Shown piece after piece: positions 1 to 30,043 of a stretch of DNA of 64,000 nucleotides. The stretch is taken from the NCBI GenBank assembly GCA_951406725.2, contig OX597814.1:69130001-69194000 (forward strand). Reading direction: 5' to 3'. How positions within the stretch are numbered: position 1 is the stretch's first letter; every line of letters begins with the position of its first letter. This DNA is from Octopus vulgaris. Its lineage: Eukaryota. The position numbers were made by a program, and so were the translations under genes. The notes beneath the pieces are model-generated. The model worked only from the letters and a program-made list of their open reading frames with translations. It did no database searches and was not told the origin of the DNA.

Positions 1-1200
1 ACGACCGGACCTGCGCTGCTCAACCACAGGCCACCTGCCTGGCGAAAGGCTTTTACCTTTGGTTCCAGCCTCATTAACACCATTGTTTGATACATTTGTA
101 TTATACAGTTTCACTCAACATTGAGGTATGTGTTTTAAGGTTAGCCACCAACCGGTATTTTTATCGAGACACCATCTCTAGTAAAATTGTCAACTAAGAC
201 TGCAGAACTCTTACTACACATATGTTGGGCCTGTTCCCTTCGCATTTCTGTGTGTTGGAGACCATGATCGTGATTCTTGCAAGGAGACAGGTGAGCGTCG
301 GTTGGTCCCGCATCTTCATTCAAATATTGCACTGGAGTTGAGTCCCGATTCGCGGTTCATTCATCTTCATCCCAGGTATGGAGCCGTTGAACACTGACAA
401 GCTGTCACCACTAAGGAGTCCAGTCTACCTCAGATTTAAACTTAAATCCAAGACAGACTGCCAACCAAGGCTCACGAGTTCTGTCTACCCGTTTTCGGAA
501 TGGCCATTGGCTTTTCAGAGTTCCTAGTTTTATTTTTAACCCTGCAACGTGTCGAAAATCCACCGGCCTCACCAAGCAAGTTTAGTGAGGTTACCAGTTT
601 AGATACCGACTACACGACGGCCTCACAACGCCACTTGTTAATCATTCTGGGTAATAATTTACTTGTTCACTATTATAATTTCACTATTACTACTATAATC
701 CATATCTTATTATTTACTTGTTCACTACTATAGTTTCACAATTATTACTCAACTTATATTATTACTATAAGGCCGAAAGGTCTTAATATTATCTTCCCTG
801 ATTTCTTTAGACAACAAATAATGGCAGATTTACGGCTGTTGGTTTAGCTACTGCTGATGCTGCGGCGTTAAATAGAGGAGCAGCCTTGTTATGTCTATTA
901 ATACAGGTTGCTAGATTGGACTTCTAGTTGACATGACTGGCAGTGGGTTGGGCACGAGGGGGAGAGGATTTTTGAGAAGAGCGTCGACATGTTGGAACTG
1001 GCAAAGATAAGATATAGAAATTTATAAACAACACCTCCAAGTTTAAAAAAAAAACTATAGTAGTCTATCTATAAAACACCACATCGTATTTACGATAAAG
1101 GAATCTGTCTATGGAAAATCACATCGTAGTTAAGATATAGAAATCTATAAACATCTCAGAGTTTTAGCAAACATAGAAAGTAATAGAAAAGGCTTACATA

Positions 1201-3196: not shown

Positions 3197-3242
<46 letters not shown>
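3197..3242. repeat. (ATT)n microsatellite between two R4/Dong-like copies
   Basis: Pure ATT run read directly. Confidence 0.95.
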
Positions 3243-3245
<3 letters not shown>

Positions 3246-5027
3246 TAGTTTTATTTTTATAGCATGCTTTCACTTCACTACCGAGCGCAGCTCTGTGTGC
3301 CTTGGGTATGTGCTATGATTTGTTGTGATGCTCTGATGGTTACTGTATGGAAAGTGTGCTGCGTAGGATGTGTGCAGTGCCTAGTAGTGCAATTTTCTGT
3401 ATGTTATATGTGTTTGTAAGACCTGGTGTTTTTGCAATGTATTTGTCTGAATATTTTTTTATCATGCCTAATGCACCTACTATGATAGGAATTGTTTCTG
3501 TTTTTAGATTCCACATTCTAGTTACCTCTATTTCCAGGTTTTTGTATTTTGAAAGTTTCTCTATTTCTTTTAGAGAAACGTTGTCATCTGCTGGTATTGA
3601 TACATCAATTAGAAAGCAATTTTTTCTTCATGATTTCTGACAACTATATCTGGTTTGTTGGACTTAATTTCTCTATCTGTGTGTATTGGCATATCCCAGA
3701 GTATGGTTGCTTTCTCGTTTTCTGTGACCTATTCTGGTGTGTGCCTATACCATCTTTTTTCTGTTGTTTTTCCATAATGTTGGCATAGCTTCCAGTGTAT
3801 GTAGGTCCCAACTCTGTCGTATCTGTGAATACATTCCTTCATAGCCAGGACAGGGCAGCCAGAGATAATATGATTTATTGTTTCTTGTCCATCTCCACAT
3901 ATTCTGCAGTTACTTGTTATATTTCTTTTCATTACATGTTTTTGGTAATTTCTGTGCTGCAATTAAAAATCCCTCTGTTTCTGCTTTGAGTCCTGAGCTT
4001 CTCAACCATTGCTGGGATTTTTCTTTGTGTATTTCTTTTGCATTTAGTTTAATCCAGTATTTGCCATGAAAGGGCTTTTCTTGCCATCTTTTTATCATGG
4101 TCCGTTGCTGTTCTAGTTTTAGTTTGCATTTCATTTGTTTTATAGCTTTTGTTGTGTTTTCTTCTTCTTCTTCTTCTTCTTCTTCTTCTTCTTCTTCTTC
4201 TTCTTCTTCTTCTTCTTCTTCTTCTTCATATTTGTTAGGTGGTATGATTTCTTGTTTGTATTTTGTCAGCTTCCTTAAATACTGAGAACAATTTTTTGTT
4301 TTGCACATGTTTTGCCGCTATTTGTATCAGTTTTCCTTGCTTCTGAAGTAGGTATTTTTGCAGTCCTACTGTGGTTATTTTATAATAGTTTTCCAGCTTT
4401 ATAAGGCCTCTACCACCTTCTATACGTTGTATATATAGCCTTTCTATGTCAGATTTTGGGTGATGCATCCTAGATCCTGTCATTATTTTTCTTGTTTTCC
4501 TATCTATTTTGGTTAGTTCATTTAGCGTCCAGTTAAGGATATTGTAGCTGTAACTGGGACGGCTAAAGTGTTGATACTTATTATCTTGTTTTTAGCATTG
4601 AACTCTGTTTTTAGTATTGATCTAACTCTTTCATTTGTGTGTGTTGTGTCTTATCTAGTTCATGGATTCCTAAATATTTGTAAGTTTGGCATTGGTCTAA
4701 TTCTCTTATTTCATTGGCTTTATCTAGTGTGATGTTGCTACTCTTAACTAGTTTTCCTCTTTTCAGGGTTACTTTGGCGCATTTTTCTAATCCAAATTTC
4801 ATATCTATTTCTTTAGTAAATCCATGAACTGTCTTTAGTAGTGTTTCCAGCTGTTTGTTATTTGTAGCGTATAGTTTTAGGTCATCCATATATAAAAGGT
4901 GGCTGATCGTTTTGCCGTAACATTTATATCCGCATCCAGTTCTGTTTAGCATATCAGATAGAGGTGACAGTGCCAAGCAGAAAAGGAGTGGAGAGAGCGT
5001 GTCTCCCTGGAATATTCGTCCTCTACT
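3243..5027 (-). mobile_element. R4/Dong-like non-LTR retrotransposon, 5'-truncated within RT (copy 2)
   Basis: IFQGDTLSPLLFCLAL, HLLYMDDLKLYA, KFGLEKCA, YKYLG, ETEGFLIAAQ, CRICG..ETINHIISGC, KPDI, GTAHILRSTLS. The 3' end joins (TAA)n on the minus strand. Confidence 0.9.
4159..4227. repeat. (TTC)n microsatellite expanded inside the R4-like ORF (poly-Glu in frame)
   Basis: Pure TTC run; poly-E in ORF 3910-4308. Confidence 0.95.
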
Positions 5028-5028
5028 T

Positions 5029-5090
<62 letters not shown>
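5029..5090. repeat. (TAA)n microsatellite
   Basis: Pure TAA run. Confidence 0.95.
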
Positions 5091-5093
<3 letters not shown>

Positions 5094-5096
5094 TAA

Positions 5097-5995
<899 letters not shown>

Positions 5996-6217: not shown

Positions 6218-6309
<92 letters not shown>
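6218..6309. repeat. (GATA)n array 1
   Basis: Pure GATA run. Confidence 0.95.
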
Positions 6310-9300
6310 TCTTTTTATTATGGCCACACAGGGCTACACACAGAAAATAGACGAAATACAATGTAGAGTTTTTCTTTTCGAGGTGGGATGGGTGGGACAT
6401 ACAAAGAAAACGTTTGATCAATAGGGATCGTTGGGCCGTGTGGTGTACAAAAAAGAAAGAAATATATAAAGTTCCCCCAAAAAAGGTGGTGAATCGATAT
6501 TGTTCACAGCTTAGGTGTAGCCTTGGAAAGAAAAACCTACAAAAAAGACATAGTTCTAAAAGTACATAAGAGTTAAAAGGAGGACTGGGCATGCCGTGGT
6601 TAATGATGCGCAGGCATGCACTGAGACTGCGGCATCTCTGGAACTTCATCGATGACGGTGAACAGGTGTGAGCGCCGTTTGTGAGGCGCGCCTTCCCGCA
6701 GCTCGTTTCACTGACCGAACTGCAAACATGGATAAAAAAGAAACCGAAACTGGGCGATTGGCACCTTTCCTCTCGTTATAGATTTATGCTTAAAATGGTG
6801 TCGTCTTTCATACTGACCATTCTTGCCACATTTACCCATTTTTTATTGAAACTTTCATTCGACAACACTTTCCTCTCTATTCTCATCCTCCTTGAAAAAG
6901 TTGACGAGAGACTGACCAGAGAGGAAAGTGTTTGTTTGTAAGCCTTTCAAACGTGTCCACCACACGCATTCTTTCGCCATAGCTATCAGTGTTACGAAAA
7001 CTGTTTTTCCTTCCCGTTTAAAGGAAGGTGGCGAAACAATATTCACGATAGACTCGGCCGATAAGCGGGCCCGTCCTACACGCGACAACAGCTGTTCGAC
7101 GAAGGTCCACAGCTCTGCGTGCAGAACAGTTTCGTCGCTCTGACCGCATCTCAAGCAGGTCGGTCCGGTGGTTTTCGAACCGTGTCTGTAGATCTCTCGA
7201 ACTGGTAGTGCGTCCCGATAGCATTGCCAAGCCAGAGATCTCTGAAAGTTATCCATAGGCCCCGGCTCGAACGTCGTCCTGAAAATGCGGGTTAGGAATT
7301 TCTCGTCGACGCTCAGGTTTGCCCCGAGTGTGCCGTCGGACCTCCCCTCCACTAGACCTCTATAGAACGCGTTGGTCGTTTGTAAGTTGCACAAGTTTGA
7401 TCTCGAACGACAGAGCTGCTGTAGAGCTTGGCGACACTCTCGGTGCCAATCGCCCAGTTTCGGTTTCTTTTTGATCCATGTTTGCAGTTCGGTCAGTGAA
7501 ACGAGCTGCGGGAAGGCGCGCCTCACAAACGGCGCTCACACCTGTTCACCGTCATCGATGAAGTTCCAGAGATGCCGCAGTCTCAGTGCATGCCTGCGCA
7601 TCATTAACCACGGCATGCCCAGTCCTCCTTTTAACGGATGTTGACAGCAAATGGATCGCCTCACCATCGGAACGCCACCCTTCAACAGAAAGCGGAAGAG
7701 TATGCGTTCTAGTTTCGTGATGGTAGCATCGGAACAAGGCACGACGGTCAGGTGGTAATCGATGATTGATGCGATATACGCATTAGCCACCTCGCCCGAC
7801 ATTTTAGAGACAGCTTTCTCTCGGCCCATGTTTGGCTGAGAGCGACCACTCAACTCGTGATCCCGTCCCAGTTCTTATCCATTTGGAGGTCCGGACTGAA
7901 CCAGACCCCGAGCAATTTAACCGGTCCGTCCGTCCAGCGTCCCACTACTGAGCCGCAGTCGGACGGCATGGGTTTGCTTCTCCAGGTGCCGAGTAGCAAA
8001 CCCACTGACTTTTCCGGGTTAATTGTCGCTCCCGTCACCGTTTCGTATTCTTTTAGTGTCTCGCCTATCATCTCGATGTGTTTTTCGCTCGACACTATGA
8101 CGGTAACATCGTCCGCATATGCCGACACGCTCGTCCCGCAACCCAGTTCCTGTGGGATGCCCCTCAGTGTCGCCAGCTTCCGCAGTAGCGGCTCGAGAGT
8201 CAATACATACAGAAGCGCCGACAGGGGACACCCCTGACGGACCGAACGCGTGATGTCAAACGGTTTCGACAGGTGACCGTTCACCCGAATCACAGAATGG
8301 ATGCCGCTATACAAGGCAGCGATCCAACCGCGGAAGACGGGACCGAAGCCAGCCGCCCTGAGGACGGCCGCCAAGTACCGATGGTCGACCCTATCGAAGG
8401 CTTTAGACTGATCCAAATTGATCAGCGCCCCACCCATGCCATCCTTAACTACCCTGTCCACAATGTAGCGCATCAGATGGAGGTTGTCATGTATGGTTCT
8501 GCCCGGCACGGCGCATGTTTGCGCCCTGTCGACCAGTTTACCAATGACAAGCGCCAACCTCTCAGCTATTACTTTGGCCAAAATTTTCAAATCTGCGTTG
8601 AGCAGAGTGATGGGCCTGAAATTATCTATAAAATTCCCCTTGTTTGGGTGTTTCTTCAGCAACGTCACTGCACCTCGGCTCACGAAACCGGGGATTCTCC
8701 CGTTTTGTTGCCAGTTGCAGTAGACTGATGCTAAGAGGTCGCCAAACAAGTCTGGCATTTCACAATACAGCTCGTAGGGTAGACCATCCAATCCAGGCGA
8801 CTTATCCCTCGCACATCCTTTCGGGTTCGAGTAAACGGCATCCCTGTAGATCTATTAGAGACCGAATGGTGGTTCTGTTGCCACGTTGCGCCTCCGCTAC
8901 CCGGGCCTCTCGCGCAGCTTCGATCCCTTCGTTCCTTAAGGCACGCATTTCAGCTCTGACGACGTTAATATGTATGTTTGTAGAAAGTGTTGTTGTTTTG
9001 TGCGGTGTTTGTGTTGTTGTGGTGTTAGGGGTAGAATTTGTCTTCTCGTCACTGTTATCTGTTTTCTTAGTTGTCGTCCTTGGTGCTGGTGTTGGTCTGT
9101 TTTTTGATGTTGGTTGTGGTTTCGTTTCTTTATTTGGTTGCGACGTCAACGGTAATTGTGTTGGTGCTGTTTCTTTTCTCGATTTGAATGGTCACCTCTA
9201 TCGATTTACCAACCCAATTATCATTTTTGAACACGGCAATTTCCAAAATGTTTATTGATTTTAAGTGGTAACATATCGCCGATGTTATCCATTTGTTTGG

Positions 9301-10493
9301 GATTTCCTGCGGGACATTTTTTATTCTTATCTTACTTACTCTTTGGCTTCTGTAATACGGAATCATTATGAGTTCATCATTTTGTAGCGTTTCTGTAGAG
9401 TGGGCTTTTGCTTCTTCCTGATTATGGAAGCGGACTACCACTATATTAAACTGGGGACCCCAGTTTATGTATTCTTTTATTTTCATGATGTTTTTCGTGC
9501 ATTTTTCTACGTCCGTTTTTGTTATTTGTTCGTTTTGTTTTTTTTTGGTTTTTTCTAATAATTCTATATATAATTGTTCTTTTTTCTATTTCTTCTTTAA
9601 TGTGTTGTGGTGTATGTAGTATTAAATTTTGCCCTGAAGTTGTGAAAAGTGATCTTGTCTCTATCAACTCTTCATTTGTGAACTGTATAATTTCTTTTTT
9701 CTGACGCAGGGTGCCAGCGAAATTCACAGTTCTCTTCTGGCAGTTGTTGTCGTTGTGTCTTTTTGTTGTTGCTGTATCAGAATTATTGTTGGTTGTTGTA
9801 GTGTTTGTAGCTTTTTCAATGTTAATATTATCATCACCATTAGGTGAGATAATCAAATCTTGCAAAACATCGTGGTCGTTTATATTTACTTCATTTTTGT
9901 TGTTAACGGTTGTTGTGTCAGTTTTAGTTCTATCATTGGTGTTGGTGGTTGTGGTGGTGGTGGTGTTGATTTCAGTTTTATCTTTCTTTATATCAGCGTC
10001 TTTGTTGACTGTCTTTTCCAAAACAGGGAAGTCCTCCTTAGACAAAATCATAGAATATTGTTCTACGATAAGATTTCTCGACATTTTTTTTTCGAGAAAA
10101 ATAAAAATCAATTGATGAAAGTGCCCCTAAAGGCGAATTCTACGTATAAAAAACACCCAAACGAAAGTTGGGCGTTTGAAAAGTTGAAAAACTCCGAAAA
10201 TGTAAAAAGTAAACAAATGGATGCAAACGAGCGAAAGAGAACAGCGCCTATGCGTTATGAGAAACGCTTTGGCGACATTGTGTGAAAAACAAGCTATGGC
10301 AGCAAAAATTTTGATATATAATCGAGGCTGAACTTGCCCCTAGGGGCAAAATCCCCTCTGGAAAACACACCCAGACGAAAGCTAGGTGTCTTACACACTC
10401 CGTGTGTAAAAATTGAAACGAAACTTTTTCAAAAATACAATAAAAAAAGCTTTTGACTTACGAGCCACTCTGTCAATGAATACTATCGATCGG
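6310..10493 (-). mobile_element. Tx1-clade (L1 group) LINE copy A, both ends present but internally deleted
   Basis: ORF 7850-8791 has DGLPYELY, FRPITLLNADLKI, LDQSKAFDRVDH, VRQGCPLS and AYADD. C-terminal CLRC..ETVLHA is present, with an ORF1 remnant at 8966-10111. APE and the ORF1 knuckle are lost by deletions (ORF1 fused to ORF2 near 8965). Flanked by (GATA)n. Confidence 0.9.
6572..6765 (+). repeat. 194-bp inverted copy of 7442-7635 inserted in the 3' UTR of copy A
   Basis: Reverse-complement match with one mismatch seen; both copies translate to RRAFPQLVSLTELQTWIKKKPKLGDWH. Confidence 0.9.

Positions 10494-10577
<84 letters not shown>
10494..10577. repeat. (GATA)n array 2
   Basis: Pure GATA run. 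Confidence 0.95.
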
Positions 10578-10578
<1 letters not shown>

Positions 10579-10956
10579 GTTTCTTTATTAGCCACACAGG
10601 GCTGCACAGAGATGGGACAAATTACAAGGTAGAGCTTTTCTTTTTGGAGATTAAAAAAAAAGTGGCGTAGGTTTTCGATCAAAAGGGATCGTAAAAGGGA
10701 AAAAAAGGAAAAGAAACAAAAGAAGAGAAAAAAGAAAAAAGAAGAAAAAAAAAGGGAAAAAGGTGAAGAGGAAAAAAATTATCAATAGGGATCGTGTATC
10801 ACAGTGTCATGATGTACGGTGTAAAGGGGGAAGCAGATAAGGTTTATCCGTGGGAAGAGAAGCCTACGAAAAAGACCACGGTAACCTCCGTCAATATTGT
10901 TATATGTTACCACATTTGTTTGCAAGTGGGTAACCCTCTGTTATCAATTTCTGGAT

Positions 10957-13900
10957 TCATAGGATTATGCTCAAGGTGGCTTCGTCATTCATACGTGCCA
11001 TCCTTGCTACATTCACCCATCTTTTTTTAAAACATTCGCTAGACAAAACTTGCCTCTCTACTCTCACTTTCCTTTTCAAGTGATACTTGAAGAAGTTGAT
11101 GAGAGATTGACCAGAGTAAAAGTGTTTGTCTCCAATCCTTTCAGATGCGTCCACCAGATACATTCTTTCGCCATAGCCACAAGGATGATGAAAATAGCTC
11201 TTCCTTCCCGTTTGAAGGAAGGAGGCGTGACAATATTGACGATAGACTCAGCTGATAAACCGACACGTCCCACATGTGACAGCAGTTGTTCGACATAAGC
11301 CCACAGGTCGGAAATTGTTGAACACTGCACGAGTGCGTGCAGAACGGATTCGTCGCTCTGACCGCATCTCGGGCAGGTCGGCCCCGTGTTTCTCGAGCCG
11401 TGTCTGTAGAGCTTATCCCGAACAAGTAGCACTTCTCGGTAGCACTGCCAGGCCAGGAATCTCTGGAAGTTGTCCATGGGACCTAGCCCGAACAGGCGGG
11501 TCAGGTATTCCTCGTCGACGTCCAGGTTCGTCCCAAGATCGTCGTCGTACCTCCCCTCCACTAATCCCCTATAGAATGCGTGGGTTGCGTTGGAGTCACT
11601 CAAGGTCGACCCGGGACGGCATAGTTGCTTGAGAGCAACGCGACACTCGCGGTGCCATTCGCCCTTCCTCGGCCTCTTTTTGATCCACGACTGCAGTTCT
11701 GTCATGGAGACGAGCTGCGGGAAAGCGTGCCTCACAAACGGCGACCACACCTGTTCACCGTCGTCTACGTAGAGCCTGAGGCGTGTCTGCGCATCATCAA
11801 CCACGGCATGCCCAGGCCTCCTTTTAACGGGTGTTGACAGCAAATGGATCGCCTGACCATCGGGACGCATCCTTTCCACAAGAAGCGAAAGAGAATGCGA
11901 TCTAGTTTGGTGATGGTAGGGTCGGGACAAGGCACGACGGTCAGGCGGTAGTAGATGACGGACACGATGTACGTGTTCGCCACCTCCGCCCGACTTTTTA
12001 GGGACAGTTTCCTCTCGGCCCATTGCCGGGTGAGAGTGACCACCCTACTCGTTATCTCGTTCCAGTTCTTCTCCATTTGGAGGTCCGGACCGAACCAGAC
12101 CTCGAACAACTCGACCGGACCGTCGGTCCAGCGTCCCACGACGGAGGTGCTGGTGGACGGCATGGACTTGCTTCTCCAGGTGCCGAGTCGCAAGCCCACT
12201 GATTTTTCTCGGTTGATTTTTGCTCCTATCACCGCTTCGTAGTTTTTCAGTGTCTCGCCGACCTGCTCGATGTGCTCGTGGCTAGACACTATGATGGTGA
12301 CGTCATCCGCGTATGCAGACACGCTCGTCCCGCATCCCAGTTCTCGCGGGATGCCCCTCAGAGTTACCAGCTTCCGCAATAATGGCTCGAGAGTCAATAC
12401 GTATAGAAGCGACGAGAGGGGGCATCCCTGACGGACCGAACGTGCGATGTTGAAAGGTCTCGATAGATGTCCATTTACGCGAATTATCGAACGGATGCCT
12501 CTGTACAAAGCGGCTATCCATCCGCGGAAGACGGGACCGAAACCAGCCGCTCTGAGGACAGCCTCCAAGTATCGATGGTCTACCCTATCGAAAGCTTTCG
12601 ATTGATCCAAATTGATCAGGGCCCCACCCATGCCAGGTTCCTTAACTACCCTGTCTATGATGTAGCACATCAGGTGGAGGTTGTCATGGATGCTCCGGCC
12701 CGGCACGGCGCACGTTTGCGCCTTGTTGACCAGTTTCTCGATGACAAGCGCCAACCTCTTGACTAACACCGTGGCCATAATTTTCAAGTCTGCATTAAGC
12801 AGAGTGATGGGCCTAAAGTTATCTATTACATTCCCCTTGTTTAGATCTTTCTTCAGCAGTGTTACGGCTCCTCGGCTCACAAAACCAGGAATGCTCCCGT
12901 TTTGCTGCCAGTTGTAGTACACCACAGCCAAGTCTTCCTCAAACAAGTCTGGCATACAACTGTAAAGCTCGTAGGGTAGACCATCAAGACCCGGCGATTT
13001 GTCCCTCGAGCATTTTGCCATCGCGTCCTGCACTTCTGCCCCTGTGATGGCACGTTTGCAGCGCCCTGCGTCTCTTGACGAGAGTCGTGGTAGGCTGTGT
13101 AGGTAGGCACTGAAGTCCACCCTACGTTCTTGCCCGCCACTCGTCCCGAACAGTCGGGCAAAATGCTGTTGAAAGGCTTCACACATTTTACTTGGCTCGA
13201 GCAATTCGCGCCCCTGTTCATCTACCAGAGACCGAATGGTGGCTTTGTTGCTCTGTTGCGCTTCTGCCACCCGGACCTCTCTTACGGCTCCAACACCTTC
13301 CACCCTTAGAGCACACATCCTAGCTCTGACAACACACCCTTCGTGTTTGGTGTTGAAGTGTTGGTCGAGGTCCAAACTCGCCGCCAAAACGTCGGGTGCG
13401 ATGCCGCTTCTAATTGCCTCTTCTAGCTTCTTAACTAGCTCACCCTCTACTCTATTTCTATCTATGGCTAGTGCTTTACTGTACCTAATCGCTTCTGCTT
13501 TTACTGCTCTCTTGAGGGCAAACCACCATTTGTTGTTGACGATGGCTCCCGTCAAAGCCCTCTTTACTAGTGTGCTAATCCGGTCTCTGAAAACATGTCT
13601 CGATGGGAAAGACGCGTTTAGTTTCCAGTATCCGGGACCCTGCTTATGTGTCTACCTAAGTCTAGTGTACATGTAATCCGTGTAGCTGACTATGTGGGAA
13701 TTGTGGACATCCTATGTTATGTCTATCAACTGTCCTACACAGTATCCTATCTAGATACGATCTCGACGACCCACTGCGGTTGCTCCATGTCCACGTTGGC
13801 GCATTCGGGTGGTCTAGTCGGAACCTGTCAGACAGTTGAAAGCGTCTGAGCAGGTCTCTGAGGCATTTGCATCCCCGTCTATTCCTATCTCTGCCCACGT

Positions 13901-14354
13901 AGTCTAGATGCGTGTCCAAGGTAGCATTCCAATCCTCCACTAAGAGTAAAGGGCGAGAGGTTTCCAAGAATACTTCTAGACGTTGAAAGAAATCCGCCCG
14001 ACCTGTTAAGGGCGGTGCGTAGACTGATACGAGTCGAAAAGCGCACCCATTGTTGCCGTCGACATCCAGGACGACCAGTCTACCCTCCGGGTCTACGAAT
14101 GTTGTCTTTACTTTGAGATCCAGACTCTTGCGAAAAAGTACCGCGGTGCCACTACCGCCCATTCTTGGCAGACAAGGGGAAAAATAAATGTTGAACTGTC
14201 CGCCAAACATGGTCTTTAGGGCCCGTGGATTGTGGAGTCTGGTCTCACTTATTGCTATGATTTCTAACTTGTGTGACTTTATGTCATTTAAGAGGTACCC
14301 TTGTTTCCAAGGGGACCCCAAGCCACGCGCATTTACACAACCAATCTTGATCAT
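10957..14354 (-). pseudogene. Copy B ORF2 (APE endonuclease, reverse transcriptase, C-terminal CCHC), frameshifted
   Basis: MIKIGCVNARGL, ISET, VYAP, DWN, SYLDRI (13662-14354); RT motifs in 11765-13555; CPRC..ESVLHALVQC in 11076-12023. Confidence 0.9.
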
Positions 14355-14398
14355 AATCCTAATGAATTAGAATACAAGTGAAAGGAACAGAGGGTTAC

Positions 14399-16562
14399 TT
14401 ACTGCTCGAAAGTTTTTGCTTTCTCCTCCTTTGGTTTGTCCTCGAGGAGATCCCAGTAAAGTTTCTTTGTGAGGTACTTTTGGCATTTACCAACCGTACT
14501 GGGAAAAATGACTTTTAGTGTGTGGTGCAGACTTCTGGAAATATGCACTATTTTGATGTGGTCCGGTGGTGTGGTGCATGTGTGATTGTTTGTTTTTATG
14601 TCATCTTTTGTTATGTTTGTTTTTGATTTGATGTATTCCATCAAATTTGTGTTTTTGGTGTCTATAGCTGTGAGCATGTTTGCTGTATATATTTTTGTGG
14701 TGTTGGTGTGGCTGTTGTTTGTGTTGGGTTTTGAAATGTCTTCGGGAGATGTATTTCCTCCTGCTTTGTTTGTGTTTGCATTTGGTTTGGTTGTGTTTCT
14801 GCTCTTTATTTTCCTTCCTTTTCTAGCTATTTGCCATTTCTCACCGGTTTCGTCTTCCGACGAATTTTCTGAGGAATCAGAAGGGGGTAGGGGTATGTTG
14901 TAGGCTTCTATGTATGTCTGTGTAAGTGGTTGTGTTGTTATTTTCGTTGCTGTTGGTTGTTGAGTGTTTGTGTGTGGTGAGTGCGGTATAAGGGATGGGG
15001 AATCAGTTTTTGTATATTTTCTTTGTTTTTCTGTTCCTTTGGTTCTTGCTGTTGGTATTTTCTCAGGTGTTGAATAATTTTTGGTTGTTGATGGATTAGC
15101 TTGGTGTGTTTCTCTTGCCGTCTTCTGTGTTGATGGTGGTGTGGGTAGTAGAGCTTTTTTCTCGGAGCGTTTTGGTTGTGGTAGTGGTTGTTGTTGTTGC
15201 TCCTGATGTGCAGTGGTTGGGCACTTCTTTTTCAAGTGTGTTTCGCTTCCACACAAATAGCAACGTGGTCGCCTGCCCTCTACCACTACATAGAGTTTGT
15301 AGCCTTCTGGCAGTTCTATAGTGGTGGGTATCTTTTCTCTTGTTGTTTCATCCAATTGAAGGAGGAATTGGATTGATTTTTCCCACCCAGTTTTTCTGTC
15401 CTAGAACAGCGATTTCAAGAATGTTTGTCTCTGCTATTTCAAAGCAGATGGCAGAGACTAACCATTGTATTTCGACTTCAGATGGGACATTTTTTATTTG
15501 GATTTTCGTTATCCTCTGGCCTAAATAGATTGGTATCATTACCAAGTCGTCTGAGTGCAGCTCCAATGTGGAAAATTGTTTTGCTAGATTGTCGTTGAGG
15601 AAACGTACTTGGACTGTGCCAAATTTATTTCTCCAATTGATATACTCCTTTGAGTCCCATGCAGAACGAAGGCATTTTTCAATTTTTTCCTGCGGTGCAT
15701 TTTCTGGTCGTCTTGTTTTCTTGTTGATGACTTTGTAGATTTTTGCTTCTTTTGTGTGTGTTTTCCACGATGTGTTGTGGAATGTGAAGATGCAATTTGT
15801 CTCCTTCTTTGGTGAAGAGTGCTTTTGTGAGGTTTATTTCCTGTGTGGTGAATTTTACGATTGTTCGTTTTTGTTTTGTCGCATCCGCGAAATTCGTTTA
15901 AATTTTGGCGGTGTTAGCAGCAGAGGCGTTAGTTGTAGCAGTTGCAGTCATGGTAGTGGTGTTGGTGTTGGCGGTGTTGTCTTCGGTAGGCGGCTTTGTG
16001 CTGATTTCGTTGTTGTTGTTGTTGGTAGTGATGGTGGTGGTGCTGGCATTCATGTTTGCGTCTGTATTCATTTTTGAAATCCCTTTTTCTGTCTTTTTTT
16101 CATCGACAAGTGGTGTAGGGAGTGGGGGAAATCTAAGTTAATGTCTTTGGTGGCGGCGATGGTGAATGGATTTGCGACGTTATTTTTGTTGTTGTTGTTG
16201 GTGGTGGTGTTGGTGGTGGTGGTGGTGACAGCGGTGTTCAAGCTGCGAGGTTTAGCAACTGGCAGAAACGTTAGCACGCCGGGCGAAATGCTTAGCGGTA
16301 TTTCGTCTACGTTACGTTGTGAGTTCAAATTCCGCCGAGGTCGACTTTGCCTTTCATCCTTTCGGGGTCGATAAATTAAGTACCAGTTACGCACTGGGGT
16401 CGATGTAATCGACTTAATACCTATGTCTGTCCTTGTTTGTCCCCTCTGTGTTTAGCCCCTTGTGGGTAATAAAGAAATAGGTTTAGCAACTAGTGGTAGC
16501 AATAGTGTTTCGCTACCGTTCCGCATGACTGGCGGGCTAGCCACGTGGTTTCTTGTTGCCAT
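14399..16562 (-). pseudogene. Copy B ORF1 (RRM-like region, CCHC knuckle, T/N/P-rich low-complexity tails), interrupted by SINE and frameshifts
   Basis: ATG at 16562 (MATRNHV..); KIQIKNVPSE; VVVEGRRPRCYLCGSETHLKKKC; homologous to the ORF1s of copies A and C. Confidence 0.8.
16261..16478 (+). mobile_element. tRNA-derived octopus-type SINE with 13-bp TSD, inserted antisense in ORF1 of copy B
   Basis: A-box-like TGGCAGAAACGTT, B-box GAGTTCAAATT, Nin-like core CCTTTCGGGGTCGATAAATTAAGTACC. TSD AGGTTTAGCAACT at 16248-16260 and 16479-16491. Confidence 0.9.
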
Positions 16563-16789
16563 TTTCAAAATGAAAAATGACTAAAAGGAACCCACGAAAG
16601 TTTTGAACATTTTTGGTAATTTCGCCCATACAGGGGCGGAATTCTACGTGAATAATTCTCAGGTTTTTTAGTGAATGAACTTGCACAACCATTAAAACAA
16701 AATATTTGACAATAAGGAGTCTTTAACATGTAAAAGTGGCCAACTTACGTGGAGTCCATTTGACTAGCGTCCGTCCATGTCGGGGATAA

Positions 16790-16841
16790 GATAGATAGAT
16801 AGATCGATAATAGGTAGATAGATAGATAGATCGATAATAGG

Positions 16842-16903
<62 letters not shown>
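16790..16903. repeat. (GATA)n array 3 (with two GATCGATAATAGGTA interruptions)
   Basis: Read directly. Confidence 0.95.
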
Positions 16904-17269
16904 TGTTTCTTTATTAGCTACACAGGGCTGCACACAGACGGGACAGATTACAAAGTAGAGCTTTTCTTTTTTAGGGGAAAAAAAAGGCGTGGTAGGTTTT
17001 CGATCAAAAGGGATCGTAAAAGGGAAAGAAGAAAAAAAAAGAAAAAAGAGAAAAAATGGGGGGAAAAACAAACAAAAAGACAATTAATAGAGATCGTGTA
17101 TCGCAGTGTCATGATGTAAGGTGTAAAAGGGGAAGCAGATAAGGTTTATCCGTGGGAAGAAAAGCCTACGGAAAAGACCACGGCAACCTCGGTCAATATT
17201 GTTACATATTACCACATTTGTTTGCAAGTAGGTAACCCTCTGTTTTAAATTTCCGGGTTCATAGGATCA

Positions 17270-20200
17270 TAGGCATTCATACGTGCCATCCTTGCTACAT
17301 TCACCCATCTTTTTTAAAACATTTGCTAGACAAAACTTGCCTCTCTACTCTCACTTTCCTTTTCAAGTAATACTTGAAGAAGTTGATGAGAGATTGACCA
17401 GAGAGGAAAGTGTCTCCAATCCTTTCAGGCGCGTCCACCAGATACATTCTTTCGATATAGCCACAAGTATTTTAGAAATAGCACTTCCCTCCCGTTTGAA
17501 GGAAGGAGGCGTGGCGATATAAACGATAGACTCGGCTGATAAACACGTGACAGCAGTTGTTCGACATAAGCCCACAGGTCGGAGATTGTTGGACACTGCA
17601 CGATTGCGTGCAGAGTGGTTTCGTCGCTCTGACCGCACTCGGGCAGGTTGGCCCCGTGGTTCTCGAGCCATGACTATAGAGCTTATCCCGAATGGGTACC
17701 GCTTCTCGGTAGCACTGTCAGGCCAGGAATCTCTGGAAGTTGTCCATAGGTCCCGGCCCGAAAGTCGTCCCGAACAGGCGGGTCAGGTATTTCTCGTCGA
17801 CGCCTGGGTTCGTCCCAAGATCGTTGTCGTACCTCCCCTCCACTAATCCCCTATAGAATGCTTTGGTTGTGCTGAAGTCACTCAAGGTCGACCCGGGACG
17901 GCATAGTTGCTAGAGAGCAACGCGACACTGCGGTGCCATTCGCCCTTCCTCGGCCTCTTTTTGATCCACGACTGCAGTTCTGTCATGGAGACGAGCTGCG
18001 GAAAGCGTGCCTCACAAACGGCGACCACACCTGTTCACCGTCGTCTACATAGAGCCGGAGATGTTGCAGTCTCAGCGCGTGTCTGCACATCATCAACCAC
18101 GGCTTGCCCAGCCCTCCTTTTAACGGGTGTTGACTGCAAATTGATCACCTGACCATCGGGACGCATCCTTTCCACAAGAAGCGAAAAAGAATGCGCTCTA
18201 GTTTGGTGATGGTAGGGTCGGGACAAGGTACGTCGGTCAGGCGGTAGTAGATGATGGACGCGATGTACGTGCTCGCCACCTCCGCCCGACTTTTTAGGGA
18301 CAGTTTCCTCTCGGCCCATTGCCGGGCGAGAATGACCACCCTACTCGTTATCTCGTTCCAATTCTTCTCCATTTGGAGGTCCGGACCGAACCAGACCCCG
18401 AGCAACTCGACCGGGCCGTCCGTCCAGCGTCCCACGACGGAGGTGCTGGTGGATGACATGGGCTTGCTTCTCCAGGTGCCGAGCCTCAAACCCGCTGATT
18501 TTCCCGGTTGATTTTTGCTCCTATCACCGTTTCATAGTCTTTCAGTGTCTCGCCGACCAGCTCGATGTGCTCGTGCCTTGACACTATGATGGTGACGTCG
18601 TCCGCGTATGCAGACACGCTCGTCCCGCATCCCAGTTCTCGCGGGATGCCCCTCAGAGTCACCAGCTTTCGCAGTAGTGGTTCGAGAGTCAATACGTATA
18701 GAAGCGACGAGAGGGGGCATCCCTGACGGACCGAATGTGCAATGTCGAAAGGTCTCGACAGATGTCCATTTACGCGAATTATCGAACGGATGCCTCTGTA
18801 CAAAGCAGCTATCAAGCCGCGGAAGACGGGACCGAAACCAGCCGCTCTGAGGACAGCCTCCAAGTATCGATGGTCTACCCTATCGAAAGCTTTTGATTGA
18901 TCCAAATTGATCAGGGCCCCACCCATGCCAGGTTCCTTAACTACTCTGTCTATGATGTAGCGCATCAGATGGAGGCTGTCATGGATGCTCCGGCCCGGCA
19001 CGGCGCACGTTTGTGCCTTGTCGACCAGTTTCTCGATGACAAGCGCCAACCTCTTGGCTAACACCTTGGTCAAAATTTTCAGGTCTGCATTGAGCAGAGT
19101 GATGGGCCTAAAGTTATCTATAATGTCCCCCTTGTTTGGATCTTTCTTCAGCAGCGTTACGGCTCCTCGACTCACAAAACCGGGTATGCTCCCGTTTTGC
19201 TGCCAGTTGTAGTACACCAATTGTAAAACTCGTAGGGCAGACCATCCGAACCCGGCGAATTGTCTCTCGAGCATTCTGCCATTGCGTCCTGCACTTCCGC
19301 CACCGTGATGGTACTTTCGCATCACTCTGCCTCTCTTGCCGAGAGTCGTGGCAAGCTGTGCAGGTAGTCCCTGAAGTTCAAACTGCGTTCTCGCTTGCCA
19401 CTCGTCCCGTACAGTCGGGAAAAGAGCCGCTGAAATGCCTCGCACATCTTGCTGGGCTCAAGCAATTCGCGCCCTAGTTCGTCTACCAGAGACTGAATGG
19501 TGGCTTTGTTGCCCCGTTGCGCCTCCGCCACCCGGGCCTCTCTTGCGGCTCCAACACCTTCCATCCTTAGAGCACACATCCTAGCCCTGACAGCACACCT
19601 TTCGTGTTTGGCGTTGAAGTGTTGGTCGAGGGCCAACCTCCCCACCAAAACGTCGGATGTGATGCCGCTTCTAATTGCCTCTTCTAACTTCTTAACTAGC
19701 TCACCCTCTACTCTGTTTCTACCTATGGCTAGTGGCTAGTGCTTTGCTATACCTAATGGCTTCTGCTTTTACTGCTCTCTTGAGGGCAAACCACCATTTG
19801 TTGTTGACGATGGCTCCCGTTAAAGACCTCTTTACAAACGTGTTGATTCTGTCTCCGAAAACCTGTCTGGACGGGAAAGAAGCGATTAGTTTCCAGTAAC
19901 CGGGACCCTGTCTATGTGCCTTATCTAAGTCTAGCGTACACATTACGAATTTGTGATCCGTGTAGCAGACTGTGTGGAATTTTGGACATCCTAAATTATC
20001 CCTGTCTACTGTCCTACACAGTATCCTATCTAGATACGATCTCGACGACCCACTGCGGTTGCTCCATGTCCACGTTGGTGCATTTGGGTGGTCGAATCGG
20101 TACCTGTCAGACAGTTGAAAGCGTCTGAGCAGGTCTCTGAGGCATTTACATCCCCGTCTATTTTTGTCTCTCTCTACGTAGTCTAGATGCGTGTCCAAGG

Positions 20201-20633
20201 TAGCATTCCAATCCCCCACTAAAAGTAAAGGACGAGACGTTCCCAAGAATACTTCTAGACGTCGAAAGAAATCCGGCCGACCTGTTGAAGGCGGTGCATA
20301 GACTGCCAGGAGTCGAAAAGCGAACCCATCCCTGCCGTCGACAGCCAGGACAACCAGTCTACCCTCCGGGTCTACGAATATCGTCTTGACTTCGAGATCC
20401 AGACTCTTGCGAAAAAGTACCACGGTGCCACTACCACCCATTCTTGGCAGACAGGGAGAAAAATAAATGTTAAACTGTCCGCCAAACATGGACTTTAGGG
20501 CCCGTGGTTCATGGTGTCTGGTCTCACTTATTGCTATAATTTCCAAATTATGTGACTTGATGTCATTTAAAAGGTACCCTTGTTTCCAAGGGGACCCCAA
20601 GCCACGCGCATTCACACAACCAATCTTCACCAT
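17270..20633 (-). pseudogene. Copy C ORF2 (APE-RT), frameshifted
   Basis: ORFs 19719-20633, 19322-19648, 18486-19445 and 18145-18489 are collinear with copy B ORF2. Confidence 0.9.
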
Positions 20634-20683
20634 GATCCTATTGAGTTGTGTGCTTTAAAACACAAACGAAAGGAAAGGAGAGT

Positions 20684-22707
20684 TACTTACCTTTCGAAAG
20701 ATTTGTCTCCTCCTTTGATTTTTCATCAAGGAGGCTGTTATACGTTTTTTTACATAAATATTTATGACATCCCCCTACCGCATTGGGATAGAGGGATTTT
20801 AGTGTGTGGTGCAATGTTGGTGATATTGATAAATTTTCATGTGTTCTGGTAGTGTTGTGTGTGGGTGGTTGTTCGTTTTAATGTCGTTTTCTGTAATGTT
20901 TGTGTTTGTATTGATGTATTTCATAAAATCTGTGTTTTTGGTGTCTATGGCTGTGAGCATATTCTTTTTGTATATTTTTGTGGCGTTGATATTGTGTGGG
21001 GTAGGGTTTGAGATGTCTTCGGGAGATGTATATCTCCCTGCTTTGTTTGCGTTTGTATTGGATTTTGTTCTTTTTTAGTTCCTTTTCCTCCTTCCTTTTC
21101 TGGCTATTTGCCATTCCTCAGTGCTTTCGTCTTTTGTATTGTCTTTTGGTTTTACTGTTTCTTTAGTTCTTGCTGTTTGTGGTGTTTTTTCAGATGTTGC
21201 TGTGTGTTCATTTGTTGGTGTTGGCAGGTTTGGTTTTGTACTCCCTTTGTCTGTCCTCTGTGCTGATGGTGGTGTGGGTAGTAGTGGTTCTGTTCTCACT
21301 GTTGTTTTTTGGTGTTTTTTCAGATGTCGTTGTATGTTCATTTGTTGGTGTTGGCGAGTTTGGTTCCGTATTCCCTTTGCTTGCCTTCTGTGCTGATGGT
21401 GGTGTGGGTAGTAGTGGTTCTTTTTTCTTTTGTCTTTTTCCTTGTTGTGGTTGTTGTTCTTGTTCTGGTTTTTGTTGTTGTTTTTTTGCTGTTGGGCAAT
21501 CATTTTTGAGGTGTTCCTCGCTGCCACACAAGTAACAGCGAGGCCTCCTACCCTCTACCACCACGTAAAGGAAATTACGGTCTGGCAGCTCAATTTGGTG
21601 GGGGATGTTATTGATTTGGTTTTGATCAATTTGCATTAATAACTGAACTATTTTCCCCGACCATTTCTTTTCCTCCAAGGCGGCATATTCCAGAATATTT
21701 ATATTTTCTTCCATTTTGTTGCAAATGGCTGACAACAGCCATTGTGAATCTATTTCTGGAGGGACATTTTTAATTGAAATTTTGGTCACGCGTTGACCAA
21801 GGTAGGTTGGAATTAAAATTAGTTTTTCCGACTGTAATGTGAGCGTCGAAAGTTCTTTCGCTCTTTCTTCGCTGTCGAAGCGAACCTGTATCGTGGCATA
21901 TTTGTTTCCCCAATTCAAATAATTTTTGTAGGCCCATATTGGTCTTAAACAGTTTTCAATCAGTTCTGGTTGGGCTTGTTCTGGTCTGCGTGTTTTTTTG
22001 CGTTTAGGACTTTGTATATTATTGTTTTCTTTTGTGTGTTGTCTATGATGTTTTGTGGTATATGTAAGCGTAGATGTGAACCTTCTTCAGTTAACAGGGC
22101 TTTTGTTTGTTTTATATGTTCTGTTGTGAAGTGTAATATTGTCTTTTTTGGTTTTAATGCTTGTTCAAAATTGGGTTTGGTGGTAGTGTTGGTGGCAGAG
22201 GTGTCAGTTGTAGTAGTTGAGGTTGTAGTAGTGCTGTTATTGTAGGCGGTTATCGTACGCGGCAAAACGACGATATCGTTGTTGTTATTGTCGTTCTTGG
22301 TGGCGGCGGCGGCGGCGGTGTTAGTGGCAAGGGAGGCAGCCGTAGTAGCAGATATTGAAGTGGTGGCATTGGTATTGACGGCACGGTGTTTGGTGGCGGT
22401 GATGGTGATTGGTCTGGTGATCTTGATTTTGTTATTGTTGTTGGTAGTGGTATCGTTAGCAGAGGAAGCAGTTGTAGTAGCAGAAACCGCCATGGTGGTG
22501 GTGTCGGTGTTGATGGTGGGATCATCGGTGGCGGTGACGGTGCTTGGGCTTGGTACCTTGGTTGTTGCTGTTGTTGATGCTAATGGTGGTGGTGGTGTTA
22601 GTAGCGTTCAAACTGTCAGGTTCAGCGTTTAGTGGCAGGGAATCTTGCTCTTTTGTTTCGGCGTCGCGCTTGACTTGCGCCTCGGCATCGTGGTGACCAG
22701 TAGCCAT
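20684..22707 (-). pseudogene. Copy C ORF1, frameshifted, with an internal 130-bp tandem duplication
   Basis: ORFs 22522-22707, 21960-22493 and 21208-21918; duplicated segment 21181-21291 / 21311-21421. Confidence 0.8.
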
Positions 22708-22909
22708 TTTAGAAAATAAAAATGGCTAAAATTTTTGAGAATCTTTTTAAATTTTGCCCACAAGGGGCGAAATTTTGTGTGGATGTTAATGAAAGTATGG
22801 GTTGGGTGTTGTTGTACACCTTTTAGACATAAAATGTTTGACAATCAACAATTTTAAACGTAGAAAACTACCAACTTACTTGGAGCCCATTTAACTTGCG
22901 TCCATCCTC

Positions 22910-22911
<2 letters not shown>

Positions 22912-22990
<79 letters not shown>
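22912..22990. repeat. (GATA)n array 4
   Basis: Pure GATA run. Confidence 0.95.
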
Positions 22991-23309: not shown

Positions 23310-25050
23310 ATTAGCCTTCTTTCGAACTCTAGATAATACAACATACAGCTGACCATGTGAGAAGAATTGTGTCGGACGATATATTCCAATTTGCTCAAAA
23401 GTCTGTCCCTATGCTTTGTTGCGTGTCAAGGCAAAAGTTGGCTTGACAGGAAATTGTTTGCGTGTAAATGGAAATGGAAATTCCATTTCTTGAGATACAT
23501 GTGGTATTCTTGGGATTATCAGAGTTGATCCTGCATAAGGACCAGAAGTAACCTCAGTTCCAATAAAATGATCATGTAAACTGACAATGATGTAGTGTGA
23601 GCCATTTCAATGTTCATTAGTAGCATCTAAATTTCTCAGAAGCATTATGCATCGTTTTTTCTTCAGTTTGAGAATGTGTGGTGGAAACCCTGATGGTGCA
23701 AATTTGTTGATGAACTCGATTGGGTATAGAGTTTCATTATCAACAGTATCTGAGCTTCAGTATATTTTTAGCTCACCAGGGATCCTGGTCAACAGAAAAT
23801 CATTTACAAATTGTGCTGCTTCATTTGCTAGAGTAACAATGGTTCTATTTGCAAGCCCCACAGGGTTTGAGAAGTTATTTTTGAGTTCAGCATATACAAA
23901 GTCACATAGATCTGAAAGAGTACCACTTTCAAGGCCAGGGTTATTGGGTAGTTTGATTTTGAATTCACCTTGGCTTTGTTCTACAGAAATGTTACCATAA
24001 GAAGATAATTAGCAAACTCTCTTTCATCAGAATTACCTTCTGTAATAAGTCTTAGATTGGTTGTCAACTCCACTACTTCCACATGATCGCAAAGAAAAGA
24101 TCACTTTTGTGTTGCATCAACAATTTGTGATCTGACATCATTATTTTGAAAGAGAATATTCTCCTCTCGAGATACCCTAACCAACCGGTCATGTGTAGCG
24201 AAAACAGAATCATGTCTACGCCTCTGTGAATATTCAGGCATCTGTTTCAGTCGCTTTGCCCATGTTACATCTGATTCAGTTGCCCGTCTTTTTTCCTGCC
24301 GTTGTGCCTTTGCTGCTAAATTTTCTTTTTCAGTCGCATATTATATATAAATGAAAACTCGTTAAAAACTATCTTGCTTAGCGTGCTAGAAATAGCAGCG
24401 ATCACAGTTATTATTGTAAGGCTTATAGCGTTCCAAGTAGCCATACCAACAAAATCCCTTCTTCGTTAAAAAAAAATTATACCGGTATATTAAAGAATTT
24501 TCATTTTATCAAAAATATTCCGGAAACTGATAATATTATGGAAGTTATGCCTCGTATCAAAGTTATACAGCTATTTTGTGTAGTAGCATGCATTCATTTA
24601 ACACACAATCACCGGTATATTAAAAAATTGTCATTTTATCAAAAATATTCATTTAACAAACTCCGGAAACTGAAATTGTGACTCGTATCAAACTTATATA
24701 GCTATTGTTAAATTATCATTAATGAAAAAAAAAAGCGAGCGAGAGACTGTTACAAATAAAAACGTAAAATGTTGCCTGCAGCGAATTAATAGTGTTTATT
24801 ATTAAACATTAAAATCTACTCCGCAGTGAATGAAATGAATATCTAAATTCATGAAGAATTGAACGCAGTGAATCCAATGAATATTTAAATTTGCAAGAAT
24901 TTAAAGTATCGAAATTATAGGCAATTTCTTAGAACATTAATATATAAAAATATTTCCAGGCGGTTAAGCTTTTAATATTGCTTTCTTTTTGTATTTTTAG
25001 TAATTGTTACATACCTAATTAATAAGCAGCTTTCTCCATTATAATATAGA
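23310..25050 (-). mobile_element. Helitron relic (PIF1-like helicase C-terminus, internally deleted)
   Basis: Minus-strand translation APSGFPPHILKLKKKRCIMLLRNLD..LIIPRIP..FPFTRKQFPVKPTFALT.NKA*GQTF..SHGQLYV, and VELTTNLR near 24060. Candidate 5' terminus A|TCTATATTATAA at 25050; 3' CTRR end not identified with confidence. Confidence 0.8.
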
Positions 25051-25823: not shown

Positions 25824-26106
25824 TTATTATTATTCTGGTCATTGCTAATAATACTATTACGATTTTGACCATTCCTCACAATGAAATAATTGGTGCTGTG
25901 AGTACAATATTGTTTATTATTACTATTAAAGATGTCAGGAAAACTGACGAAAGGGTTTTGATTCATCAGGACAATGTTCTGGCTTTCAGTGCGCTGAGTT
26001 CAAATCTTGCCTGGATCAACATTGCCATTCATTATTTCGTGGACAGTGAATAAGTCACCATATTAGAGCATATTAGAGAATGTGCCACGATATTTGTTTA
26101 TGTCTC

Positions 26107-26396
26107 TGTAGTGTGATCGAAGAAAAGGACAACAGAAAAAGAAGCAAACGGGAGAAAGAAATACAAAAGGCCTTACCTGTTGACCTCGGCGGAATCAGCG
26201 GTCACTCTCACGAATTAAACACGTCTTGCCTCTCTGCCGTCTCAGCTCGAACTGCACACGCGTTCTTTCTGCCCACGCATGCCCCTTTCACTCTTCCGCC
26301 GGCCCCTGCAAGCCTTGCTTCCGTCCACCTCATCTGCAATCCCCTCCACCAACACCACATAGCTCCATCACAGCCCATAACACTACTAATATCACA
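26107..26396 (-). repeat. 3' LTR (290 bp)
   Basis: Direct repeat of 30056-30362; preceded on the minus strand by the purine tract AGGGGAGCG (26397-26405). Confidence 0.93.
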
Positions 26397-26462
26397 CGCT
26401 CCCCTGATCAACACATCACTCAAATGGCTTTTCCACTCACTCCTCGCTCCCGAACTCACACC

Positions 26463-30013: not shown

Positions 30014-30043
30014 TCGTTTTTTTGTTGCTTTTTTTTTTTAAGG

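What the first reader, a model, noticed from the sequence alone, without database searches (positions are those of the whole stretch)
6218..22990. A (GATA)n-targeting Tx1 lineage: three full-span LINEs split one microsatellite into four arrays
Seen: the order is GATA(6218-6309)-A-GATA(10494-10577)-B-GATA(16790-16903)-C-GATA(22912-22990). All three elements are in the same orientation, retain 5' UTR and 3' end, and have no poly(A). The array upstream of C is not preceded by an element 3' end, so ATCT is not merely a tail. ORF1s and 5' UTRs are strongly divergent while ORF2s are close, so these are independent insertions of different subfamilies rather than a tandem duplication. Known: Tx1-clade APE elements can be sequence-specific (Kibi at TC repeats, Koshi at TTC repeats, Keno at U2 snRNA). 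I do not know of a described GATA-specific family in cephalopods. Inference: an APE endonuclease specific for (GATA/TATC)n, using an abundant safe-harbour target.
Basis: partly seen in the sequence, partly recalled or inferred. Interest (0 to 1): 0.8.

Follow-up and report, generated by a model that had tools for sequence, protein, structure and literature searches.

The report
LINEs stacked in a GATA microsatellite
Three related but separately inserted jumping genes (L1/Tx1-type LINEs, probably from an octopus) sit head to tail inside one GATA repeat, which points to a lineage that seeks this repeat: a new target for a known kind of repeat-seeking element, seen so far at one locus only.

Summary
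The layout is real. Four GATA arrays bracket three minus-strand L1/Tx1-type LINEs, and all three 3' ends meet the repeat in the same phase, 4-6 nt after AATAAA, without poly(A). Corrections: A is not full length (it lacks about 2 kb, including the endonuclease), and the third array is interrupted. dN/dS of 0.17-0.33 shows three separately evolved lineages, not a tandem duplication. The closest named proteins are from Argonauta and a cuttlefish. Preference for (TATC)n is the best explanation (0.75), but it rests on one locus: no genome was held and no other copy's flanks were seen. That the endonuclease alone sets the target is not supported. In the sister branch, eight families with 90-96% identical endonucleases stack head to tail with eight different junction spacers and no GATA, and the spacer seems to travel with the RNA. 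I favour nicking plus pairing of read-through (UAUC)n RNA with the nicked GATA strand (inferred). Microsatellite-targeting Tx1 elements are known (TC, TTC, TTTC, TTCC); I found no GATA target in the papers I could search, and Repbase could not be searched. New variant of a known kind.

The parts
6218..6309 (.). (GATA)23 array, 3' of element A; reads (TATC)n on the element strand
6310..10493 (-). Element A: internally deleted, non-autonomous copy with both ends, no APE
6572..6765 (+). 194-nt inverted copy (99.5%) of A's own ORF2 segment 7442-7635, replacing part of the 3' UTR
6778..8963 (-). A ORF2 remnant: part of linker, RT (RVT_1, E 1.9e-32), C-terminal region; frameshifted
8964..10084 (-). 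A ORF1 5' half (approximate bounds)
10494..10577 (.). (GATA)21 array between A 5' end and B 3' end
10578..16789 (-). Element B: full length, decayed
10959..14354 (-). B ORF2: APE (Exo_endo_phos), RT (RVT_1), zf-RVT; frameshifted
14399..16562 (-). B ORF1, frameshifted (approximate bounds)
16790..16903 (.). Interrupted GATA array: 15 perfect units on C's side, two degenerate 27-nt copies on B's side
16904..22911 (-). Element C: full length, the most decayed
17276..20633 (-). C ORF2: APE with catalytic motifs in place, RT, C-terminal region; many frameshifts
20690..22707 (-). C ORF1 with CCHC zinc knuckle (approximate bounds)
22912..22990 (.). (GATA)20 array 5' of C, bordered by non-element DNA; shows the repeat was there before the element

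Best explanation
An octopod branch of APE-type L1/Tx1 LINEs inserts by target-primed reverse transcription into (GATA/TATC)n tracts, in a fixed orientation and phase. One array was hit three times by three subfamilies, and each hit left repeat on both sides and so renewed the target. Shown: anatomy, same orientation, same 3' phase, no poly(A), separate lineages. Inferred: the APE nicks the GATA strand between units. The transcript runs on past AATAAA into the downstream repeat, so it ends in a few UAUC units that pair with the nicked GATA 3' end and prime copying there. This would explain the missing poly(A) and the fixed phase. Any target-site duplication is hidden in the repeat, and slippage later reset each piece to about 20 units. 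C probably came first. A lacks an endonuclease and was either moved in trans or deleted in place. The stated confidence is for the GATA preference; I put read-through pairing as a contributor at about 0.5.
For: All 6 element ends abut the same repeat in the same orientation, and 3 of 3 3' junctions read element|TATC. Third-position-biased divergence and dN/dS 0.33 (B/C), 0.18 (A/B), 0.17 (A/C) mean three separate lineages. TAA and TTC arrays lie 0.2-3 kb away and other microsatellites cover 1,784 nt of the rest of the window, against 84 nt of GATA, yet none holds one of these elements. A GATA array without any LINE exists at 48516-48579. AATAAA lies 4-6 nt before the repeat. In sister families, 0 of 41 distinct junction sequences have an A-run of 6 or more after AATAAA, and 3 of 3 array-terminal copies end 17-29 nt past AATAAA in the family's own spacer. 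That is what a read-through RNA end would leave. RNA-target pairing at priming is proposed for SART1Bm and R1Bm (PMC7265360, passages). Tx1 families preferring (TC)n, (TTC)n, (TTCC)n and (TTTC)n are described (PMC4494074).
Against: One locus only; no other copy of this branch was seen with its flanks (searches gave none). The sister branch does not use GATA: no microsatellite at its junctions or array ends, and a single (GATA)6 match in that assembly, about 3.5 kb from the nearest element. It forms head-to-tail stacks without any repeat, so stacking may be a clade habit that needs no GATA recognition after the first insertion. The 3' ends show no significant RNA fold (z -0.05 to -0.69). No RNA 3' end was observed.
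Confidence: 0.75

Rival explanations
1. One reading: the APE alone is sequence-specific for (GATA)n, as Tx1L-EN is for its target, and the RNA end plays no part.
For: Tx1L-EN nicks almost only its own target in vitro, and the betaB6-betaB5 loop shapes selectivity (PMC1950540, passages). B and C share one loop sequence; it is two residues shorter than in seven of the eight sister-branch proteins aligned. C keeps the catalytic motifs that align with L1 EN.
Against: Eight sister families with 90-96% identical APE (7 of 8 with an identical loop) have eight different junction spacers. Repanas et al. found loop flexibility more important than loop sequence. It does not by itself explain the loss of poly(A) after a conserved AATAAA.
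Confidence: 0.3
2. Stacking at own kind: only the first copy (C) met the GATA array, by chance or weak preference. Later copies were drawn to an existing element (its termini or chromatin), and GATA lies between them because it was the local flank or a templated tail.
For: The sister branch builds head-to-tail arrays: 89 ORF2 matches in one assembly, most with open frames, in runs of up to about 70 kb, with units 98.8-99.5% identical. It does so without any microsatellite. The neighbourhood is dense in mobile elements.
Against: A, B and C are 14-22% divergent, with different ORF1s and 5' UTRs. Each junction holds 20 or more repeat units rather than a direct join, and all three 3' phases agree. 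A and B would each need to land exactly in the repeat.
Confidence: 0.15
3. Tandem duplication of one element with its GATA flank, or an assembly artefact.
For: Same orientation; arrays of similar length; a near-perfect inverted copy inside A could be an artefact.
Against: Divergence is concentrated at third codon positions (131 of 265 mismatches for B/C, 238 of 411 for A/B) with dN/dS 0.17-0.33. Each copy has its own indels. ORF1 differs far more than ORF2.
Confidence: 0.02
4. Already catalogued: the family and its GATA target are in Repbase or another library that I could not search.
For: Bonar et al. 2026 list 80 L1-Tx1 consensus families in O. vulgaris, 13 recently active (PMC13282606). Tx1 target notes appear in Repbase Reports (one is cited in PMC10088271). 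The target labels in Fig. 3 of PMC4494074 could not be read.
Against: No paper in ten full-text searches names a GATA/TATC target for a LINE in its listing or in the passages read. 'gata' does not occur in PMC4494074, PMC4640811 or PMC8869645, nor 'GATA' or 'target' in the Bonar supplement.
Confidence: 0.15

Closest known systems
Microsatellite-targeting Tx1-clade LINEs: Kibi (TC)n, Koshi (TTC)n, crocodilian Tx1-1/5/6_Crp, Tx1-1_Gav, Tx1-2/3/5/8_AMi on (TTCC)n/(TTTC)n (Kojima 2015, PMC4494074; parts 1-4 of 5 read, Fig. 3 labels and supplements not seen)
   Same: Two-ORF APE-RT LINE of the L1/Tx1 type with a simple repeat on both sides; tetranucleotide targets exist; TATC differs from TTTC by one base.
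   Different: Different repeat unit and host (octopod). It belongs to a cephalopod branch whose sister families use no microsatellite, so the habit probably arose separately (not tested: no Kibi or Koshi sequence was at hand).
Keno (U2 snRNA-specific Tx1); represented here by L005, whose 3' end runs into U2
   Same: RT core 42.7% identical to B; same domain order.
   Different: L005 ends in poly(A) and targets an RNA gene; the window elements have no poly(A) and sit in a microsatellite.
SART1Bm / R1Bm (R1 clade; PMC7265360, passages)
   Same: Works like them on my reading: a repeat target, fixed phase, and proposed RNA-target pairing at priming.
   Different: Other clade. SART1Bm needs a poly(A) tail and targets telomere repeats.
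Human L1
   Same: Best solved-structure matches for both APE (E about 1e-9) and RT (E about 1e-41, against 1e-19 for R2).
   Different: L1 has a loose T-tract target and a poly(A) tail, and its ORF1 has no CCHC knuckle (recalled).

Membership tests
L1 group, Tx1 clade | ORF2 with N-terminal APE, RT and C-terminal zinc-binding region | tested here: met
   Pfam Exo_endo_phos, RVT_1 and zf-RVT in B; APE and RT in C; RT only in A
L1 group, Tx1 clade | Separate ORF1 with CCHC zinc knuckle | tested here: met
   zf-CCHC E 4.9e-5 in C; Atlas look-alikes are CCHC and ZCCHC3-like proteins; B's knuckle aligns with C's but did not reach the Pfam cut-off
L1 group, Tx1 clade | RT closer to L1 than to RLE-type elements | tested here: met
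   L1 ORF2 E about 1e-41, R2 about 1e-19
L1 group, Tx1 clade | RT groups with named Tx1 families in a phylogeny | tested here: inconclusive
   No named Repbase Tx1 sequence was available. In the quick tree (careful search unfinished, midpoint root, 2 rows dropped as too short) the cephalopod clade (support 100) lies in an open fork beside U2- and U1-associated elements and fish, turtle and lancelet LINEs.
Target-specific Tx1 family (Kojima's criterion) | More than 20% of copies genome-wide flanked by the target | not testable with these tools
   No genome held; 3 of 3 copies in the window are flanked on both sides
Kibi/Koshi lineage | Target (TC)n, (TTC)n, (TTTC)n or (TTCC)n | tested here: not met
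   Target is (TATC)n; the (TTC)23 array at 4159-4227 holds none of these elements
Kibi/Koshi lineage | Phylogenetic grouping with Kibi/Koshi | not testable with these tools
   Reference sequences not held
Sequence-specific APE (Tx1L-type) | Isolated endonuclease cuts the target specifically | not testable with these tools
   Needs an in vitro assay; the comparison weighs against APE-only specificity in the sister branch

The most novel reading that the evidence does not exclude
This cephalopod L1/Tx1 clade has given up the poly(A) tail and picks its landing site largely through the short stretch of RNA read past AATAAA. Whatever lies downstream of the donor becomes the guide: the family's own junction in the sister branch (giving arrays of up to about 70 kb of near-identical intact LINEs), and (TATC)n in the octopod branch. 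The target could then be changed by changing 15-30 nt of RNA while the endonuclease stays the same.
Probability: 0.25. Interest if true: 0.72.

Novelty: new variant of a known kind. Interest (0 to 1): 0.42.

Why it matters
It adds a new repeat unit and a cephalopod host to the short list of microsatellite-seeking LINEs, and suggests the preference held across subfamilies separated by dS of about 0.7. The more useful point is the natural comparison: sister families with nearly the same endonuclease but different junctions, next to a branch in GATA. That makes the question of how much of a LINE's target choice comes from the endonuclease and how much from the RNA 3' end directly testable.

Tried and rejected
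No host genome was held, so the genome-wide flank test was not run. No read or contig data were laid on the element, which leaves other copies' flanks and empty-site alleles unseen. The run search listed 20 of 24 runs as holding part of B, under four coded organism labels; none was laid, so it is not used as evidence; no RNA holder listed. Scans for relatives with flanks found no copy of the octopod branch: JGI metagenomes gave 31 loci, all distant; viral contigs gave none; GTDB gave 128 confirmed stretches, of which the best 80 were kept as 42 loci, either sister-branch or distant; 179 genomes of one bacterial family gave 2 with distant matches. The close proteins (P0208 70%, P0219 74%, P0241 77%, Argonauta P0209 65%) came without DNA. 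Rfam found no RNA gene at sister-branch junctions or array ends. Folding of the 3' ends was not better than shuffles, so no claim of a 3' stem-loop is made. The 27-nt repeat in the third array was considered as a target-site duplication and rejected: the two copies are adjacent, with nothing between them. Look-ups of earlier findings by sequence and by place returned nothing. No structure or complex prediction was run, since sequence already identifies the folds.
Full report
Observation. The four arrays are at the stated places, and the three intervening stretches are homologous LINEs on the minus strand. B (10578-16789) and C (16904-22911) have a 5' UTR of about 200 nt, an ORF1 and an ORF2. 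Pfam finds a CCHC knuckle in C's ORF1, and APE and RT in both ORF2s, with zf-RVT in B. Both are broken by frameshifts. A (6310-10493) keeps both ends but jumps from the middle of ORF1 into the ORF2 linker. It has lost about 1.9 kb including all of the APE, then a further ~175-190 nt, and it carries a 194-nt inverted copy of its own ORF2 in the 3' UTR. The third array is 15 perfect units plus two degenerate 27-nt copies next to B's 5' end.

Junctions. On the element strand each 3' end is AATAAA, then 4 (A), 6 (B) or 6 (C) nt, then TATC; none has poly(A). The three phases agree (1 in 16 by chance). The 5' ends also abut TATC. The array upstream of C borders DNA with no match to any element, so at least that array is not a tail. 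GATA tracts also occur without LINEs (31268-31287, 48516-48579). They make up only 84 of the 47,227 nt outside the cluster, while perfect microsatellites of all kinds cover 1,784 nt.

Independence. Over 1,058 codons B and C differ at 69, 65 and 131 first, second and third positions (dS 0.18, dN/dS 0.33). A against B (697 codons) and against C (664 codons) gives dS 0.70 and 0.73, dN/dS 0.18 and 0.17. That divergence built up under selection in active lineages, not after a duplication. In the region shared by all three, C has about nine private indels, A five and B two or three (read), so C is probably the oldest; A and B are not ordered. At the octopus rate quoted in PMC13282606 (0.0036 per site per million years), the splits would be about 25 and 100 million years. 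These are rough upper bounds, because retrotransposons mutate faster than the host.

Identity and host. The best solved-structure matches are human L1 for both APE and RT. The closest named proteins are from Argonauta hians (65% and 52%) and Acanthosepion pharaonis (45%). A quick tree of 66 RT cores (careful search unfinished, two rows dropped as too short) gives one clade with support 100. It splits into a branch with A, B, C, Argonauta and two unnamed proteins (98) and a branch with the cuttlefish protein and many unnamed ones (97). A, B and C are each other's nearest rows (98). An octopod host is therefore likely. Tx1 membership rests on architecture and on 38-43% RT identity to U2- and U1-associated elements (L005, L072), not on named references.

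The sister branch. A bacterial genome bin (G001) holds animal-like contigs with 89 ORF2 matches, most with open frames, in head-to-tail runs of up to about 70 kb; units of one family are 98.8-99.5% identical. These junctions contain no microsatellite, and 0 of 41 distinct junction sequences have an A-run after AATAAA. Instead, AATAAA is followed by a family-specific spacer of roughly 11-29 nt and then the next 5' end. The spacer is present at 3 of 3 array 3' ends, and clearly at 3 of 6 array 5' starts, with only partial likeness at the other three. One family carries the same spacer inside arrays whose 5' flanks differ and lack it, so the spacer travels with the element. Eight families have APE domains 90-96% identical, seven with the same betaB6-betaB5 loop, yet eight different spacers and 5' UTR/ORF1 regions only 63-89% alike where they align. 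So divergent 5' halves on a conserved ORF2 are a habit of the whole clade, GATA use is not shared by the sister branch, and junction sequence does not follow APE sequence there.

Mechanism. Shown: repeated same-phase, same-orientation insertion of three lineages into one GATA tract. Inferred: the APE nicks the GATA strand. Cleavage normally falls 10-30 nt after AAUAAA (general knowledge), and sister copies end 17-29 nt past it, so the RNA here should end in a few UAUC units. These can pair with the nicked strand and start copying ahead of any poly(A). Pairing of this kind is proposed for SART1Bm and R1Bm (PMC7265360, passages). Each insertion leaves repeat on both sides and renews the target. 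The endonuclease-only model stays possible: Tx1L-EN is specific in vitro (PMC1950540, passages), and the B/C loop is two residues shorter than in seven of eight sister-branch proteins aligned. Stacking next to an existing copy is a weaker rival. Against my reading: there is one locus, no RNA data, and no significant 3' fold.

Local comparison. Positions 1.2-5.9 kb hold three mutually related fragments of another LINE type (RVT_1 in two of them; restriction-like endonuclease motifs of the Dong/R4 kind, a label that is recalled). They abut (TAA)n arrays. Two LINE types a few kb apart thus keep to different repeats, which favours repeat-specific choice over a general liking for microsatellites. 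It also marks the region as a tolerant hot spot.

What is known. Kojima 2015 (PMC4494074; parts 1-4 of 5 read; figure labels and supplements not available) lists Kibi (TC)n, Koshi (TTC)n and crocodilian families on (TTCC)n/(TTTC)n. PMC4640811 and PMC8869645 (passages) add (TG)n and RNA-gene targets, with no GATA. Bonar et al. 2026 (PMC13282606; parts 1-2 of 3 read, supplement searched by term) report 80 L1-Tx1 families in O. vulgaris, 13 recently active, with no target analysis in what I read. Marino et al. 2022 (PMC8967140, passages) note that L1-Tx1 expanded in coleoids. PMC10088271 and PMC9004415 were seen as passages only. Ten full-text searches showed no GATA-targeting LINE; most hits were seen only as listings. 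Repbase Reports and most subscription papers are outside the library, so a catalogue entry may exist.

Verdict. A real feature and a new variant of a known kind. GATA preference 0.75; already catalogued about 0.15; interest 0.42. The boldest reading not excluded, that the RNA 3' read-through sets the target across this clade, has probability 0.25 and would deserve about 0.72.

Noticed in passing
G001 contigs C3-C19; L032-L070, L073-L090: A bacterial genome bin contains animal-like (probably cephalopod) contigs made of head-to-tail arrays, up to about 70 kb, of intact L1/Tx1-type LINEs of at least nine families. They have no poly(A) and carry family-specific junction spacers on near-identical endonucleases. 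One literature search showed nothing like it in cephalopods. It may be more interesting than the finding itself.
   Followed up: partly
L072:3036-3199 and 9961-10137: A distant Tx1-type LINE in host DNA of another bacterial bin lies just downstream of a full U1 snRNA gene and its 3' end runs into U1 nt 35-164: a candidate U1-targeting family, one copy only.
   Followed up: partly
L005:5815-5977; L012: A Keno-like element whose poly(A) joins U2 snRNA; L012 holds an RT fragment among three U2 copies.
   Followed up: partly
window 1200-5995: Three decayed RLE-type (Dong/R4-like, recalled label) LINE fragments abutting (TAA)n arrays at 3197-3242, 5030-5096 and 5865-5995; two are stacked through a TAA array much as A, B and C are through GATA. 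A (TTC)23 tract sits inside one of them.
   Followed up: partly
window 6572-6765: Near-perfect inverted copy of an internal ORF2 segment inside A's 3' UTR: a recent template switch or an assembly artefact.
   Followed up: partly
window 21176-21438: A 130-135 nt tandem duplication inside C's ORF1 (86-88% identical).
   Followed up: no
window 26077-30330: A decayed LTR retrotransposon (CCHC knuckle, RNase H, integrase core) with similar text at both ends.
   Followed up: no
window 40218-40835: Last coding exon of a dynein heavy chain gene (Dynein_C, E 6.7e-77), minus strand; the LINE cluster lies about 17 kb beyond its stop codon.
   Followed up: partly
window 60679-63292: LINE-like ORFs: RT followed by a PHD-like finger, then a separate APE frame; possibly two stacked or nested elements.
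   Followed up: no
window 23757-24008: A frame resembling a Helitron/PIF1 helicase fragment (recalled likeness).
   Followed up: no
window 49250-55870: AT-rich simple-repeat blocks that look mirrored around about 52.5 kb (reverse-complement units at 49805/54968 and 51166/53609): possibly a large inverted duplication.
   Followed up: no
window 33536-34593 and 45261-45311: Degenerate TTAGGG-like arrays.
   Followed up: no
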